From: Bdellovibrionota bacterium
Lineage (GTDB): Bacteria; Bdellovibrionota_C; UBA2361; JBIKWN01
Assembly (NCBI GenBank): GCA_044356295.1
Contig: JBIKWN010000019.1
Span: 1 to 38,094 of the forward strand
Reading direction: 5' to 3'
DNA length: 38,094 nt
The position numbers are program-made. Each line of letters begins with the position of its first letter. Within the stretch, counting starts at the first letter, position 1. Shown here piece after piece: positions 28,301 to 38,094 of this stretch.

Positions 28301-31300
28301 CACCGTCTTTCAACGTATAAAACCTCATCAATGGCGTTTCTTGACCAATGAGCACCTTCCCTGGGATGGGTCCACAGGCTGCAAGCAATAAACATAAGAG
28401 CAAAAATATTTTTTTTATCACTTTGTCATCCGCTCTTTGATCACCCAAAGCTCTTCCTCATAGATTTTTTTTACATCTTTATTTTGCTCTGCTTTATATG
28501 CTTCAAGTATAACTTGTAGTACAGCTGTATTATTAACATTTCGAAGTGCATGAACCGATGCCTTACGTACTTCAACTGATGGATTTGATAACAGTGCAAC
28601 CATCGAAGCCGCTGGAATCCGTTTTTCAAATTCTTGTAAATAGTAGGAAAGGAAACTTTGGTTTGGAGCACTCACTAAAAAAGAAAATAATGGATTCTTT
28701 TCTTCAAGATGTTTTAGTGGTTGCAAAGCTCTCTCTACCGTAGACTTAGAAAAAACCATTTCACTGCTTGTCGTTACCCCTACAAGAGCTGCAAAACTGG
28801 TACGATCTTTTGGATCCATTTTTCGAAACAATGAAAAAAGCTGTTCAATAAATACATTACCGCTACTTCTGCCAGCAACATAATCGAGTAAATCTTTTGC
28901 AATGAGTGGATCAGTATTATCAACAAGTAAAACTTTTAAAAGCTCTAATGCATCCGCATGTAGCCAAATTCCTAACTGTTCAACATCACCCTTTGAGACT
29001 TCTTTGGACAACAGTCGCGAAATGAGTTGAAGCGTTCCTTCAGGTAGTTCTTCTCCACTAAGAAGCGGATGAAGATATGCTTTCGTGGTATCACCAAAAA
29101 GATTTCGCTTGATAACTACTTCAAGAACGGAAGAAGAAATAGTTTTACCTTGCTGCAAAGCAGAGGTACTTAACCAACGAAGCTCATCATCTGAGCAGCT
29201 CTGAACCATAGCAGCAAATTGCGGTTGAAGTTCTGGTGAGGACTCAAGCAACATACCTATTAATGCTTTTGAAGAAATATTTATAGGAGGTAACGTTGAA
29301 CTATTCCCCATCTTTGCAATCACTGCACTCACGCTGGTTCTGTAAATATCTTCATCAGATGAAAGTACAAGCGCTGAAAGGAATTTACTTCCTAAGTATG
29401 GATTGAGAATAAAAATACGCTCGGCGATTTCCCCACGTGCAGCAGCAGGCAAGCTGCCATCAAGAATTTTCAAGCTTAATTCATACTCAGGAGGATTATC
29501 GGCAAGACTTACAGAATCGAGCCATGATTTTACTGCATCAGCTAGGAGTCCAAGTTTAAACCGCTTGGCTCGAATCATAATTTCACGCTCAGCAAGTAAT
29601 CGCTCTGATGGTTCAATTGATTTTAATGCTGCATCAACGAGTAACGTATGGGCGAGTGGATCATCAGATTGAGAAAGCTCTGCAAACTTAGCTCGTTTTT
29701 CAGTAATTTGTACATCTTGAGAATTTAAGATATCGGCAGCTTGCTTCATTCGATCATTTGCCACCGCCCGGAGAACCATTTGTGTTTCATCGAGGGTTTG
29801 TTCCGATTTGTTACTAAATAAAAGAAGCCCAATGGACAGAGCTATAACCAGGACTAAAAAGATACCAACCCCAATTAAAAGTTTTTTTCGATTTTGTACA
29901 CTTGCTGATGTTTCAGCTGATTGATCTTCTTTGTTAGCTCCAGAACCATCGAAGACTTGAAGTTGATTATCCGTGGACCTCTTTTCAAGTCTGCGTTCAC
30001 CACGCTGTGTTACCTGAGCTTCTTCATTAAGGATTTTTTCTTTTATCTTACGAAAATGAGAAGCAAAAATTGTAGCAGACTGTGGTGCTGACGAATCAGT
30101 ACTTTCAGCAATCGCAAGAGACTCATGAATCCATGCAGGAGCAGTTTGAAGTAAAGAACCAAATAATCTTCTACAAAGGGCAGTGAGTGCGAGTACATCT
30201 GCTCTCAGTATAGACTCGAGACTTCCTTCAAAGGCTGGATTACCCATAACACCAACAAGTGCTATTTCACCAGTTCTTGTCAACCAAAATGAATTTGCTC
30301 CTATATCACCTAATCCAATACCGTGAGCATGGAGCGTCTCAACAATCTGAAGCGCAGCAGCGAATCGACGCTCTGCTTCTTTCATATCTAAATTACCCTG
30401 TGTAATTGAATAGCCATCAGTATATTCAACGACGATAAAAAGTAACCCGCTTGGATCAAGTCCAACACTAAAAAGTTTTGGTGTTCGAATAGATACATTA
30501 GAAAACCTACCCATTCGTTTAACAAATTGAGTCAGGCGCTCATCATTATTTTCGAATTGTTCACGACAGATCCAAAGACCAACAGATCGCCCTCTTTCGC
30601 CATCATAGGCTTTAAATAGATCAGAATAGGTTTGTTCAATGAGTTGGTTTTCAACTGCAAAGATATCAGTAATTAATGTACTGACAAGGAATCCAGACGG
30701 TAAAGACATAGTTTAGGATTCCCTTACTGAATGTTGTTTGCCAAAAACTCCAGCTATATGAAAGCGCTGACCTGCATTAAATTCTTTCACACTCATTACG
30801 GTGACACCACGTCCTAATCGTACATTCTCTAGCAGCAACCGAAATGCCATTCTTGCCTCTTCAGAACAGATAAACATACATGCCGCAGCACCACGATTTC
30901 TTAGACGTTGGACTACGAGTGAATTCCACTGTTCCATGAAGAGGTTTAAGACACTATCTTCAAGGTTGATAGAACGTTGTAGATCATCGTTTTGGGCTAA
31001 CTCTAATGATTTAGTAAATTCTTCTGAAAGAACAAAAGCCATCGGTGTTATGCCAGCATCTTCAATTGATGGAATAAGACGACGACTTAATTTTCTTCTC
31101 ACATGATCAAGGAGAGGTTTAATGGCAACATCTGTATCTTCTGCAGCTGAAATTTTATTTGTAATACAAATTTCAGAGACTGTTTGCAGTATAAGTTGCA
31201 AGTTTGTTATGGGTAATAATTCTCTCACCATTGAACATAAAAGTTGATGTAGTTTTGGTGGAGAGATAAAAAAACGAACCATTGTTTCTGAACGCAATCC

Positions 31301-37300: not shown

Positions 37301-38094
37301 ATACATCACTCGAGACAGCTCAAGAATACGCTGTGCAAGTCCAAGTCCATCGGTATGACACACTAAGTCCATAGACTCAGCCATCCGATCTGGAGGCATT
37401 AATACCGACACATCACTGCTAATAGGAATTAGTGCATCTTTCAATGAATCTCTTGATATCTCACGAGAACCATTGACCCAAGCGCTGACTACTTTTGCCT
37501 CTACTCCGTTAACTGTTAACGCACGGGATAAGTCACGAGTTTCAACATCCATATCCCACATCATGGTTCGTTGGTTGAAAACGCTACATACTTCAGCAAG
37601 TGCTGCCGTCATCGACGTTGCACCGACACCACCTTTAGCATGGGCAATCGCAACTACTTTACCAACTCGCGTTCTTCCTTCACGCCGAAACTCAGCATGA
37701 ATTGCTACAAGGTCTTGTAGGAAATCAAGTGGACTAGAAGAATCCGTGAAAACTTTTCTTACACCTACAGAATGAGCAGCACGGAATGCTCCTCCACCAT
37801 ACGCTTCATCGGTTACAAACATTATGATTTGTATCCAAGGAGCCAACGTGTGACATTGTCTGGCAATAAGAGTAGACCGTTCACCTAATCCTGAACCAAG
37901 CACTACAACATCTGCTTCCGTTAAACGATCAGCATAGTCTCGTTCATTAACAAGCTTCACTTTGAGATCAAGCATCTCAATATCACTTTGCGAAAAAGCT
38001 TCTACTCTTTTTGCGCAAAATGCCTGTGTCTCTGTGTTGACATCAATAATGAGGAGCTTCACTGGTCCTCCAATAAGTCGAAAGATAATGCATG

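What a model noticed while it worked through the whole genome (the two positions that open the first line are those of the whole stretch)
28418..38092. SctV (T3SS export-gate) paralog encoded inside a Tad/Flp pilus operon, plus dispersed needle-less T3SS core genes
On C100 one minus-strand operon reads cpaE-like ATPase (g02282), Flp pilin (g02281), CpaF ATPase (g02280), TadB, TadC (g02279, g02278), then a full-length non-flagellar-type SctV/FHIPEP protein (g02277, 721 aa) and a 763-aa unknown (g02276). The genome also holds two further dispersed sets of non-flagellar T3SS core genes (C94:1207-8158 sctD/J/O?/Q/R/S; C71:6469-9786 sctI?/R/S/T/U; C18:52242-57223 sctJ/V + sigma factor; C38:8440-9738 sctN) but no T3SS secretin, needle or translocon gene. 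This is a genetic joining of a Tad pilus with a needle-less T3SS, the two machines that Myxococcus xanthus uses together (Kil + T3SS*) for contact killing, here in another phylum (Bdellovibrionota_C).
Evidence so far: Gene order and 7-20 nt gaps from genes.tsv; Pfam FHIPEP/T2SSF/T2SSE/Flp_Fap (pfam.tsv). NCBIfam: g02277 scores SctV TIGR01399 497 bits > FlhA TIGR01398 466; g00435 438 > 391; the true FlhA is g02795. neighbours.tsv: FHIPEP next to T2SSF in 70 of 90 genomes of the order but only 94 of 55,419 genomes that have both families. tblastn of the operon proteins on 80 loci fetched with g02277: the order cpaE-cpaF-tadB-tadC-sctV(-g02276-like-AhpC) recurs in 7 Bdellovibrionota MAG loci (L007-L011, L013, L070), in none of the 73 others. 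Weak-hit scans: g02185 FliMN_C/SctQ, g02190 and g01657 Yop-YscD_cpl (SctD), g01667 SctI-like. The only secretins in the genome are PilQ g00590 and GspD g00781. Tree of 8 [...]
(Added by a program. Inside this text positions count along the whole contig: contig position 1 is position 1 of the stretch shown here. "Call 12" and the like, gene names such as g00115 and contig names such as C1 are that model's own, and its searches are not shown. The text may have been shortened before it was handed on; [...] marks where a part breaks off. The agent that wrote the report below was given it as the finding of a first reader that could run no searches.)

Follow-up and report, generated by a model that had tools for sequence, protein, structure and literature searches.

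The report
Tad pilus operon carrying a T3SS gate

Summary
On the minus strand the window reads cpaE, flp, cpaF, tadB, tadC, a full-length FHIPEP (SctV/FlhA family, 721 aa), a 763-aa protein and a TlpA/AhpC-like gene. Gaps from cpaF to the 763-aa gene are 3-19 nt.

The tadC-FHIPEP adjacency was found in 40 of 41 loci taken from other genomes of the phylum. The one exception was a different paralogue, FlhA.

The Tad-linked FHIPEPs form one clade (23 of 23 rows, SH-aLRT 100). This clade is separate from FlhA, from the sampled injectisome SctV, from Myxococcota SctV and from the genome's second non-flagellar FHIPEP. The window's protein keeps 67 of 70 near-invariant FHIPEP residues.

New here: the SctV-less core set on contig C94 (FHA proteins, SctJ, SctQ, SctR, SctS) belongs to this FHIPEP. 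In ten other genomes these core genes follow the FHIPEP directly on the same strand, making one supercluster of about 27 genes that starts with PP2C, FHA and Ser/Thr-kinase genes.

The 763-aa protein is a pseudokinase, one TM helix and a HEAT solenoid.

No secretin, needle or ATPase gene lies in the cluster. Physical coupling of the two machines and a role in predation remain inferences.

The parts
38059..38094 (-). 3' end of a Ser/Thr protein kinase gene that continues from contig C36 (PP2C-FHA-STPK); its stop codon is at 38059-38061
   Evidence: the end of C36 is identical over 30 nt to the reverse complement of the window's end. In the join the kinase frame stops at 38059-38061, overlapping the cpaE start (GTGA). 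Pkinase 191.3 bits for the C36 part. The join is inferred from the overlap; a contig of run X2 runs 363 nt past the window's end.
36809..38062 (-). cpaE-like ParA/MinD-type ATPase (417 aa from GTG 38062)
   Evidence: AAA_31 52.6 bits, CbiA. CpaE_hom_Actino 45.8 bits, below cut-off; orthologues at 51-78% identity in the same position.
36501..36665 (-). flp pilin (54 aa, prepilin motif G/ASLVEY)
   Evidence: One search gives the sequence; 46-74% identity to the flp genes of relatives; the L007 orthologue scores Flp_Fap 40.2 bits.
36409..36430 (-). terminator-like hairpin (9-bp stem and T run) just after flp, before cpaF; a possible attenuator
   Evidence: Consensus scan only: the number of such sites in the region (6) is not above the shuffled expectation (8.2).
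34770..36263 (-). cpaF/tadA-type pilus ATPase (497 aa); residues about 1-100 are low-complexity and have no FHA domain
   Evidence: T2SSE 111.7 bits. TadA family TIGR03819 208.6 bits, below cut-off 373; orthologues at 58-70% identity.
33798..34763 (-). tadB (T2SSF platform protein)
   Evidence: T2SSF 49.1 bits.
32885..33778 (-). tadC (T2SSF platform protein)
   Evidence: T2SSF 42.1 bits. It ends 6 nt before the FHIPEP start.
30713..32878 (-). Tad-linked FHIPEP: an SctV/FlhA-family export-gate protein (721 aa) with a TM domain and a cytoplasmic domain
   Evidence: family scores; 67 of 70 near-invariant columns kept; at least 7 hydrophobic segments in residues 1-307; best solved match YscV 7alw, 348.7 bits; its own clade, SH-aLRT 100; a contig of run X4 bridges the tadC/FHIPEP junction.
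28418..30709 (-). Bitopic pseudokinase: kinase-like domain 1-235, TM helix 277-295, all-alpha HEAT solenoid 308-762
   Evidence: 33 orthologues have W46 at the VAIK lysine position and no DFG aspartate, while G134-D135 is kept. AF2 mean pLDDT 85.5; best folds are the Rv3910 pseudokinase domain and PknB. HEAT_2 28.4 bits.
27939..28448 (-). TlpA/AhpC-like thioredoxin-fold protein with an N-terminal hydrophobic segment; last gene of the string in this order
   Evidence: Redoxin 38.8, AhpC-TSA 38.4 bits. ResA/TlpA, weak; present after the pseudokinase in most in-order loci and not in the other-order loci examined; hydrophobic segment at residues 10-28.
27522..27601 (+). tRNA gene marking the end of the operon; in other orders the T3SS-like core follows at this point
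   Evidence: RF00005, 55.8 bits.

Best explanation
The FHIPEP gene is the export-gate subunit (SctV equivalent) of a lineage-specific T3SS-like inner-membrane apparatus that has no needle and no secretin. I call this apparatus class B. Its parts are two FHA proteins (one SctD-like), SctJ, a 76-aa protein, a FliJ/SctO-like coiled coil, SctQ, SctR, SctS, a polytopic SctT candidate and an SctU that has only its TM domain.

The genes of this apparatus were ancestrally one string with a Tad/Flp pilus operon and a Ser/Thr phospho-signalling module (RsbW-like ATPase, PP2C, FHA, STPK). In the window's order the string was broken after the pseudokinase gene. As a result sctV and the pseudokinase stayed in the Tad operon, while the rest of the core now lies elsewhere (contig C94 in this genome).

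Inferred mechanism.
1. The kinase/phosphatase pair sets the phosphorylation state of the membrane pseudokinase and/or other targets.
2. FHA-domain proteins of both halves dock on the phospho-sites, so that Tad motor and T3SS-like gate assemble together at one place.
3. The gate exports unfolded cargo across the inner membrane, driven by the proton-motive force, and the Flp pilus delivers it or uses it at a contact site.

Shown: gene content, order, conservation, clade structure, residue retention, and the pseudokinase fold. Inferred: co-assembly, export activity, the phospho-relay, and any role in contact-dependent killing.
For: 1. Adjacency. tadC-FHIPEP adjacency was found in 20 of 20 loci, 17 of 18 loci (the 18th is the FlhA of G101) and 3 of 3 loci of family f28. 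These cover 19 of the order's 21 families and 8 of the 15 other families. Gaps in the window are 3-19 nt from cpaF to the pseudokinase gene.

2. The FHIPEP belongs to class B.
- Class B loci of G000, G024, G025 and G010 contain no FHIPEP. Class A has its own next to sctJ.
- FHIPEP and FliP/SctR locus counts are equal in 5 of 5 genomes: 3/3, 2/2, 3/3, 2/2, 3/3.
- G025 has only FlhA plus the Tad-linked FHIPEP, and only flagellar plus class B SctR/SctU.
- Class B SctQ lies 6.4-7.6 kb downstream of the FHIPEP on the same strand in G095, G114, G108, G099, G120, G101 and G020.
- tblastn and Pfam confirm the contiguous core in G101, G020, G095, G108 and G120. In G103, G104 and G107 the first core genes (FHA x2 and the SctD-like gene) follow the pseudokinase gene directly.

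3. The protein looks functional. It keeps 67 of 70 columns that are near-invariant in 33 FlhA and SctV references; 60 of these are kept in at least 90% of 27 Tad-linked rows. It also gives a full-length Pfam match.

4. Vertical inheritance. The Tad-linked clade (23 of 23 rows, SH-aLRT 100) splits into the window's order (16 rows, 99) and the other orders (7 rows, 100).

5. Signalling logic.
- An active STPK (Pkinase 180-191 bits) and a PP2C lie at the head of the string.
- There are FHA domains in both halves.
- The pseudokinase's best structural match is Rv3910. From recall (Gee et al. 2012, not read here), PknB phosphorylates Rv3910, which then recruits the FHA protein FhaA.

6. Precedent. 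M. xanthus Kil (a Tad-like system rich in FHA proteins) and the needle-less T3SS* co-localise and depend on each other. Their association was called open (passages read in PMC12075869, PMC8460266 and PMC12428579).
Against: - No outer-membrane conduit. No PF00263 secretin lies in or near the cluster in G000, G101, G095, G020, G108 or G120. The secretins that exist are PilQ- or GspD-type and lie elsewhere.
- No SctN-type ATPase lies in the class B string. There is one SctN-like gene per genome, at an unlinked site, and none in G025.
- The system looks eroded or remodelled in the window's own genus. cpaB is missing from the operon. Class B SctR matches Pfam only over positions 123-191 (54 bits). 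The 184-aa TM protein after sctS has no detectable likeness to SctT or SctU. The branch leading to the window and L034 is long (0.86).
- In family f28 the FHIPEP at this position is degenerate (Pfam 57.7 bits). Export activity is therefore not universally maintained.
- The Myxococcota SctV rows (L061, L106) are not sister to this clade and the backbone is unresolved. Common descent with the M. xanthus system is not shown.
- There is no expression or experimental evidence. All members seen are metagenome-assembled genomes.
Confidence: 0.6

Rival explanations
1. Co-regulated but physically separate machines. The Tad pilus and the class B T3SS-like apparatus are independent complexes whose genes share an operon only because they are needed at the same time, for example under the same kinase/phosphatase control. 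The FHIPEP works only with the class B core.
For: - In most genomes of the window's order the core set lies far from the Tad operon: 1.43 Mb apart in single-contig G025, and on different contigs in the 5-contig genome G024. Tight physical co-translation of all parts is therefore not required.
- M. xanthus encodes Kil and T3SS* at separate loci (PMC12075869 passages).
Against: - When the string broke, sctV and the pseudokinase stayed with tadC in all 27 in-order loci examined rather than leaving with their own core.
- The 3-6 nt gaps suggest translational coupling of tadC, sctV and the pseudokinase gene.

Neither point proves contact between the machines.
Confidence: 0.25
2. The FHIPEP has been co-opted as a Tad accessory. 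It would act as an ion-conducting or scaffolding membrane ring that serves the pilus motor or its regulation, and would no longer act as a protein export gate. The class B core would be vestigial.
For: - The class B core is eroded in the window's genus.
- No ATPase, needle or secretin is present.
- SctU lacks its C-terminal switch domain in G024 and G101.
- The f28 FHIPEP is degenerate but kept in place, as expected of a scaffold.
- The residues retained are mostly in the TM/FHIPEP-loop region, which in FlhA is linked to ion conduction. That link is recalled from the literature and was not read here.
Against: - Class B SctQ is detectable in 109 of 124 genomes.
- SctR, SctS, SctJ and SctQ stay in order across orders, which argues for a working core in most lineages.
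- The cytoplasmic domain of the FHIPEP is full length and matches the family model to position 653 of 657.
Confidence: 0.1
3. Chance or assembly artefact: the FHIPEP gene lies next to tadC because of mis-assembly of a metagenome bin or a recent local insertion with no functional meaning.
For: The genome is a 128-contig MAG and the window is a whole contig.
Against: - The same junction is present in 40 other genomes, including single-contig and 3-contig assemblies.
- It is also seen in a contig of an independent sequencing run that bridges 32668-32987.
- The FHIPEP tree mirrors taxonomy.
Confidence: 0.01

Closest known systems
Myxococcus xanthus Kil (Tad-like) system plus needle-less T3SS* (Seef 2021, PMC8460266; Herrou 2025, PMC12075869; passages read. 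Thiery 2022 seen only as a reference.)
   Same: - A Tad-type pilus machine rich in FHA-domain proteins is paired with a T3SS-like inner-membrane apparatus that lacks secretin, needle and translocon.
- The two are thought to act together.
   Different: - Here the two are encoded in one gene string, or, as in the window, sctV sits inside the Tad operon. In M. xanthus they lie at three separate loci.
- No Tad secretin was found here, whereas KilC is essential in M. xanthus.
- CpaF has no FHA fusion here, whereas KilF has one.
- No SctN lies in the cluster. The M. xanthus T3SS ATPase SctN was used there as a localisation proxy.
- A pseudokinase-HEAT protein and a PP2C/STPK pair belong to the string.
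- Orthology was not tested, and the two Myxococcota SctV rows fall in another clade.
Injectisome SctV (YscV/LcrD 7alw, SsaV 7awa) and flagellar FlhA
   Same: - Full-length FHIPEP architecture.
- 67 of 70 near-invariant residues are kept.
- YscV is the best solved match (348.7 bits).
   Different: - Scores lie below both NCBIfam equivalog cut-offs.
- It forms a separate deep clade.
- It is encoded after tadC and followed by a pseudokinase gene, not inside an sct or flh operon.
Mycobacterium tuberculosis MviN (Rv3910) pseudokinase domain with PknB and FhaA
   Same: - The best structural match of the 763-aa protein's N-terminal domain is Rv3910 (3otv and 3uqc, TM-score on target 0.61-0.64).
- It is a membrane-anchored pseudokinase encoded beside an active STPK and FHA proteins.
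   Different: - Its partner domain is a HEAT solenoid beyond a single TM helix, not a MurJ flippase.
- That the Rv3910 domain is phosphorylated by PknB and recruits FhaA is recalled, not read here.
- No phosphorylation site was identified in the 763-aa protein.
Threonine-phosphorylation control of type VI secretion (PpkA/PppA/Fha1 of P. aeruginosa)
   Same: An STPK, a PP2C phosphatase and an FHA protein are encoded with an envelope machine. Seef 2021 (passage read) cites this as a model for contact-triggered assembly.
   Different: It is a different machine, and the gene names are recalled. No homology test was run.

Membership tests
FHIPEP / SctV-FlhA export-gate family | Full-length match to the Pfam FHIPEP model above the gathering score | tested here: met
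   532.8 bits (cut-off 29.1), residues 16-701 on model positions 1-653 of 657.
FHIPEP / SctV-FlhA export-gate family | Conserved charged and glycine residues of the TM domain and the FHIPEP loop | tested here: met
   67 of 70 columns near-invariant in 33 FlhA and SctV references are kept in the window's protein.
FHIPEP / SctV-FlhA export-gate family | Encoded with, or co-occurring with, SctR/S/T/U, SctJ and SctQ | tested here: met
   The genes are contiguous in G101, G020, G095, G108 and G120. In the window's genome the core is on another contig (C94), and SctT and SctU are not recognisable there.
FHIPEP / SctV-FlhA export-gate family | Nonameric ring and protein export activity | not testable with these tools
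   Not modelled; no experiment.
Injectisome SctV (NCBIfam equivalog TIGR01399) | Score at or above the curated cut-off of 692.25 bits | tested here: not met
   497.1 bits. Relatives score 502-552.
Injectisome SctV (NCBIfam equivalog TIGR01399) | Placement inside the clade of known injectisome SctV | tested here: not met
   it forms a separate clade (SH-aLRT 100). Proteobacterial SctV (99) and Myxococcota/delta SctV (91) are other clades, and the backbone is unresolved.
Flagellar FlhA (TIGR01398) | Score at or above the curated cut-off of 772.1 bits and placement in the FlhA clade | tested here: not met
   466.4 bits. The genome's true FlhA (C128) scores 861.2 and falls in the FlhA clade.
Tad/Flp (type IVc) pilus system | Flp pilin, CpaF/TadA ATPase, TadB and TadC platform proteins, CpaE | tested here: met
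Tad/Flp (type IVc) pilus system | CpaB/RcpC encoded in the operon | tested here: not met
   Absent between flp and cpaF in the window and in L034. Present in relatives. An orphan RcpC-domain gene lies at C42:18548-19435.
Tad/Flp (type IVc) pilus system | Dedicated secretin (CpaC/RcpA) | tested here: not met
   The only PF00263 hits in G000 are gspD and pilQ. None lies near the cluster in 5 further genomes. A very divergent secretin could have been missed.
Tad/Flp (type IVc) pilus system | Prepilin peptidase available | tested here: met
   one Peptidase_A24 gene per genome in 5 of 5 genomes (G000 C70:163497-163850). It is unlinked to the operon.
M. xanthus-type Kil + T3SS* predation machinery | T3SS-like basal apparatus without secretin and needle | tested here: met
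   Translocon genes were not searched.
M. xanthus-type Kil + T3SS* predation machinery | Orthology of the Tad and T3SS components to the Kil and T3SS* proteins | not tested
Myxococcales and Polyangiaceae MAG SctV (L106, L061) are in a different clade, and their flanks share only a PP2C with this system.
M. xanthus-type Kil + T3SS* predation machinery | Contact-dependent prey killing or lysis | not testable with these tools
   All members are MAGs and no RNA run was listed.

The most novel reading that the evidence does not exclude
The string encodes one hybrid envelope nanomachine rather than two cooperating ones. In it a Tad/type IVc pilus motor and a type III export gate would be built into a common inner-membrane assembly. 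The SctJ and FHA/SctD-like rings together with CpaB would form the periplasmic scaffold. A membrane pseudokinase with a HEAT solenoid, read by FHA domains, would act as the phospho-switch. The Flp fibre would take over the role of the missing needle and secretin in delivering type III-exported cargo. If so, the window's order would be a natural dissection of this machine, in which only SctV and the pseudokinase have to stay with the Tad platform genes.
Probability: 0.3. Interest if true: 0.9.

Novelty: new variant of a known kind. Interest (0 to 1): 0.75.

Why it matters
[quoted passage not shown] There the genes lie apart, and the 2025 papers read here call the nature of the association open.

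A phylum-level lineage that writes both systems into one operon gives independent evolutionary evidence that they form a unit. The same lineage keeps sctV glued to tadC even after the rest of the core moved away. This names concrete candidates for the interface: TadB/TadC, SctV, the pseudokinase-HEAT protein, the FHA proteins, and the STPK/PP2C pair. It also gives M. xanthus researchers testable predictions.

The finding further adds two deep FHIPEP clades outside FlhA and the sampled injectisome SctV. Public annotation currently labels them inconsistently as FlhA or as 'type III secretion protein V'.

Four literature searches found no paper describing an FHIPEP/SctV gene in a Tad operon: FHIPEP+Tad+pilus gave 0 papers; SctV+TadC gave 1, unrelated by title and abstract; Bdellovibrionota+'type III secretion' gave 13, of which 9 were listed by title and abstract and one was read in passages; 'type III secretion'+'Tad pilus'+Bdellovibrio+FHA gave 1, Seef 2021. 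The library holds open-access papers only.

Tried and rejected
- Complex prediction. The FHIPEP cytoplasmic domain (340-721) was folded with the pseudokinase domain (1-240), using alignments A2 and A1. Result: no support, score 0.01 against a mark of 0.32, controls not run. This is not evidence either way.
- Expression. No RNA holder was listed among 12 runs, so co-transcription could not be examined. The contigs laid show only that the DNA junctions exist in other runs.
- A co-absence argument, considered and dropped. Family f28 gave no Tad-linked FHIPEP at E<=1e-60 and no class B SctQ at E<=1e-10, which looked like joint loss. Fetching the loci showed a degenerate FHIPEP, the pseudokinase and the FHA genes still in place. 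The blanks were sensitivity failures, not losses.
- G025 as a clean complete-genome test. It supports the pairing of class B with the Tad-linked FHIPEP. However, it also shows no FliI and is rated 82% complete, so its absences are weak evidence.
- BLAST-level likeness of class A and class B components to the flanks of Myxococcota/delta SctV loci (L106, L061, L088, L041, L039, L044, L049). Only a PP2C (L106, L041) and an FHA x2 protein (L039) matched.
- Assigning the G000 184-aa TM protein to SctT or SctU by blastp: no significant hit.
- Backbone relations of the five FHIPEP clades stayed unresolved in two quick LG+G4 trees. No rooting or AU test was attempted. In one search, 19 redundant rows were dropped by hand for speed, and, 39 rows at >=85% identity were dropped.

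
Full report
**Observation**

The minus strand of the window from 38062 down to 27939 carries, in this order:
- a cpaE-like ParA/MinD ATPase;
- a 54-aa Flp pilin with the G/ASLVEY processing motif;
- a CpaF/TadA-type ATPase;
- two T2SSF platform proteins, TadB and TadC;
- a 721-aa FHIPEP protein;
- a 763-aa protein;
- a TlpA/AhpC-like thioredoxin-fold protein.

The gaps are 143, 237, 6, 19, 6 and 3 nt, followed by a 31-nt overlap. A tRNA gene on the other strand at 27522-27601 closes the string.

The FHIPEP matches the Pfam model over nearly its whole length (532.8 bits). Both are well under the curated cut-offs of 692 and 772.

**The operon continues upstream**

The window is a whole contig, but the operon does not start at its end. 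Contig C36 of the same genome carries PP2C, FHA and a Ser/Thr kinase (Pkinase 191 bits) and ends inside the kinase gene. Its last 30 nt are identical to the reverse complement of the window's last 30 nt.

In the join, the kinase stop codon falls at 38059-38061 and overlaps the GTG start of cpaE at 38062. cpaE is therefore complete at 417 aa. A contig of an independent sequencing run also runs 363 nt past the window's end, and another bridges the tadC/FHIPEP junction.

**Conservation of the join**

The order holds 91 species-level genomes and 90 have FHIPEP genes, typically three kinds by score. I fetched the DNA around the middle-scoring kind in three batches.
- Batch 1: 20 genomes. All 20 loci read cpaF-tadB-tadC-FHIPEP. 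19 also show cpaE (one contig ends first), and 18 show a full homologue of the 763-aa protein, with one more cut by a contig end.
- Batch 2: 18 loci. 17 have the adjacency: 7 of 7 from further families of the order and 10 of 10 from other orders of the same class. The 18th was the FlhA of G101.
- Batch 3: 3 of 3 loci of family f28 have it too, with a degenerate FHIPEP.

This covers 19 of the order's 21 families and 8 of the 15 other families. The phylum holds 124 genomes in the collection.

An independent scan of named public contigs gave the synteny in 7 of 80 loci, all labelled Bdellovibrionota or Bdellovibrionales MAGs.

In relatives the string begins further upstream, with a response-regulator-containing protein, an RsbW-like HATPase_c_2 protein, PP2C, an FHA protein and an active Ser/Thr kinase. 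It also carries cpaB between flp and cpaF. The window and its closest relative L034 lack cpaB there. An orphan RcpC-domain gene lies on C42.

**Which T3SS does the FHIPEP belong to?**

The genome has three FHIPEP loci: FlhA on C128, the Tad-linked one, and one on C18. It also has three FliP/SctR loci: flagellar on C128, class A on C71 and class B on C94.

Class A has its own SctV:
- sigma factor, SctJ, two unknown genes, a 620-aa FHIPEP and a TPR protein on C18;
- a weak SctI-like gene, a 239-aa gene, SctR, SctT and SctU on C71;
- a 207-aa gene followed by SctN on C38.

Class B on C94 reads:
- an FHA x2 protein;
- a zinc-ribbon/FHA protein (weak YscD-cytoplasmic match);
- SctJ;
- a 75-aa protein;
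- a 99-aa coiled coil (weak FliJ match);
- SctQ;
- SctR;
- SctS;
- a 184-aa TM protein;
- an 86-aa protein;
- a TPR protein.

Class B contains no FHIPEP and no ATPase. The same holds in G024, G025 and G010.

FHIPEP and SctR locus numbers agree in 5 of 5 genomes examined. Single-contig G025 has only FlhA plus the Tad-linked FHIPEP, and only flagellar plus class B SctR and SctU.

The decisive evidence is position. The class B SctQ was found in 109 of 124 genomes. In G095, G114, G108, G099, G120 and G101 (other orders) and in G020 (within the order) it lies 6.4-7.6 kb downstream of the Tad-linked FHIPEP on the same strand.

Fetching those stretches confirmed one uninterrupted string. In the 3-contig genome G101 the order is: HATPase_c_2, PP2C, an FHA-like gene, STPK, a 75-aa gene, cpaE, two flp genes, cpaB, cpaF, tadB, tadC, FHIPEP (780 aa), the pseudokinase gene (839 aa), FHA x2 (564 aa), the SctD-like FHA gene (Yop-YscD_cpl 34.9 bits, above its cut-off), SctJ, a 77-aa gene, a 166-aa coiled coil, SctQ, an 86-aa gene, SctR (165.5 bits), SctS, a 294-aa 8-TM protein, an SctU with only its TM domain (model positions 3-236 of 335), and a 152-aa gene.

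The f28 loci show the first core genes (FHA x2 and the SctD-like gene) directly after the pseudokinase gene as well.

The simplest reading is that the contiguous string is ancestral. In most of the window's order it was cut after the pseudokinase gene, where the window now has the TlpA-like gene and a tRNA. This direction of change is an inference: no species tree was built.

**The FHIPEP itself**

Of 70 alignment columns that are invariant or nearly so in 33 FlhA and SctV references, the window's protein keeps 67. Sixty are kept in at least 90% of 27 Tad-linked sequences. Hydropathy gives at least seven TM segments in residues 1-307. The best solved relative is Yersinia YscV (7alw, 348.7 bits), ahead of SsaV and FlhA.

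In a 65-row tree (quick search, LG+G4, SH-aLRT):
- the Tad-linked sequences form one clade (23 of 23, support 100), which splits into the window's order (16 rows, 99) and the other orders (7 rows, 100), as vertical descent predicts;
- class A forms a second phylum-wide clade (15 rows, 100);
- FlhA (99), proteobacterial SctV (99) and Myxococcota/delta SctV (91) are separate clades, and the backbone is unresolved (an earlier 61-row tree, agrees).

The protein is therefore a full member of the FHIPEP family. It fails the equivalog tests for both SctV and FlhA. 'SctV-like' is a statement about how it probably works, not about clade membership.

The clade is common in metagenomes: at least 120 clusters at 90% identity. 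Sources name it inconsistently.

**The 763-aa protein**

Thirty-three orthologues share a kinase-like N-terminal domain. In it the VAIK lysine position holds an invariant tryptophan (W46). The DFG aspartate is absent, while the Gly-Asp (G134-D135) at the HRD position and the alpha-F aspartate remain. This is the pattern of a pseudokinase.

AlphaFold2 with a 30-row alignment gives mean pLDDT 85.5: a kinase fold (1-235), one TM helix (273-298) and an all-alpha solenoid (308-762). Pfam sees HEAT_2 at the C-terminus.

Foldseek's best hits are the intracellular pseudokinase domain of M. tuberculosis Rv3910, followed by PknB. From recall, not read here, PknB phosphorylates the Rv3910 domain, which then binds the FHA protein FhaA. 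The same three ingredients are encoded in this string: an active STPK, a membrane pseudokinase and FHA proteins, plus a PP2C to reverse the mark.

**What is missing**

- Secretins. The two secretins of the genome belong to a T2SS operon and to pilMNO-pilQ. In five genomes with the contiguous string, all secretin genes lie elsewhere and are of the large PilQ/GspD size.
- Needle. No needle-protein match reached the cut-off in 5 of 5 genomes (no positive control among the control genomes).
- ATPase. Each of four genomes has one SctN-like ATPase besides FliI, at unlinked sites. G025 shows neither.
- Prepilin peptidase. One is present per genome.

**Signs of erosion in the window's own genus**

- cpaB is gone from the operon.
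- Class B SctR matches only the last third of the FliP model (54 bits).
- No SctT or SctU is recognisable.
- The FHIPEP branch is long (0.86).

**Interpretation**

The evidence shows that a Tad operon, a phospho-signalling module and an SctV-containing, needle-less T3SS-like core have been inherited as one genetic unit across a whole phylum-level lineage. When the unit was split, SctV and the pseudokinase stayed with the Tad platform genes.

I read this as functional coupling of the two machines. The most likely form is co-assembly controlled by Ser/Thr phosphorylation and FHA docking, with the gate exporting cargo that the pilus uses or delivers.

This parallels the M. xanthus Kil/T3SS* pair. 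The papers read here (passages only: PMC12075869, PMC8460266, PMC12428579) describe that pair as co-localising and interdependent, with the mechanism still open. Orthology to that pair, physical contact, export activity and a predatory role are not shown. The complex-prediction job gave no verdict, and no RNA data were available.

Four full-text searches found no description of an FHIPEP/SctV gene in a Tad operon. Subscription-only papers, including Thiery et al. 2022, were not searchable.

Noticed in passing
L026:4354-4581 (G000 C94), L132:15739-15972 (G101), L029:12492-12722 (G024): A 75-77-aa soluble helical protein lies between sctJ and sctQ. Within the class B string it shows the highest tblastn identity to the G024 queries: 44-58% between full-length copies across orders, against about 25-40% for most neighbours (the FHA segments reach 41-54%). 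It has no Pfam family at E<=0.01. It does not look like a needle protein by the PF09392 search.
   Followed up: partly
L155:11688-13745 (G103), also L156 and L157: In family f28 the gene after tadC is a 685-aa, strongly degenerate FHIPEP (Pfam 57.7 bits, against 530-620 elsewhere). It is still followed by the pseudokinase and FHA genes. It may be a natural case of an export gate that has lost its original activity but is kept in place.
   Followed up: partly
G025 (single-contig genome), whole genome: There is no FliI- or SctN-type ATPase match (the best TIGR02546 hits are F1 subunits and Rho), although FlhA, FliP and FlhB are present. Class A (SctV, SctR, SctU) is also absent. Marker completeness is only 82%.
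   Followed up: no
window 36409-36430 (-): A 9-bp GC-rich hairpin with a T run sits directly after flp and before cpaF, where pilin operons often have an attenuator. The overall number of such sites is not above chance.
   Followed up: no
G000 C119:11808-20484; C42:18548-19435; C85, C123, C59: A second Tad locus reads cpaE, a 68-aa ORF, cpaB, cpaF, tadB, tadC, a TadG-like gene and, further on, a response regulator. It also has no secretin. There is an orphan RcpC/CpaB gene at the end of C42, and three further flp-like genes lie elsewhere.
   Followed up: partly
L106:9026-9772, L041:2609-3340, L039:8844-9539: A PP2C phosphatase gene lies next to SctV in a Myxococcales MAG, and another about 6.6 kb upstream of SctV in a Deltaproteobacteria MAG. 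An FHA x2 protein lies next to SctV in another MAG. Ser/Thr phospho-signalling genes may be a wider companion of needle-less T3SS.
   Followed up: no
G000 C71:1059-1307; G024, G010 and G003: Small stand-alone ORFs (82-99 aa) match only the C-terminal domain of FlhB/SctU (model positions about 262-334). The class A and class B SctU proteins lack that domain.
   Followed up: no
window 4001-6000: GC content rises to 0.555 against about 0.39-0.40 over most of the rest of the window. There is no rRNA or other Rfam family there. Not examined further.
   Followed up: no
window 27522-27601 (+): A tRNA gene sits exactly where the Tad-SctV string ends in this genome. In other orders the class B core begins at this point, so it may mark the rearrangement site.
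   Followed up: no
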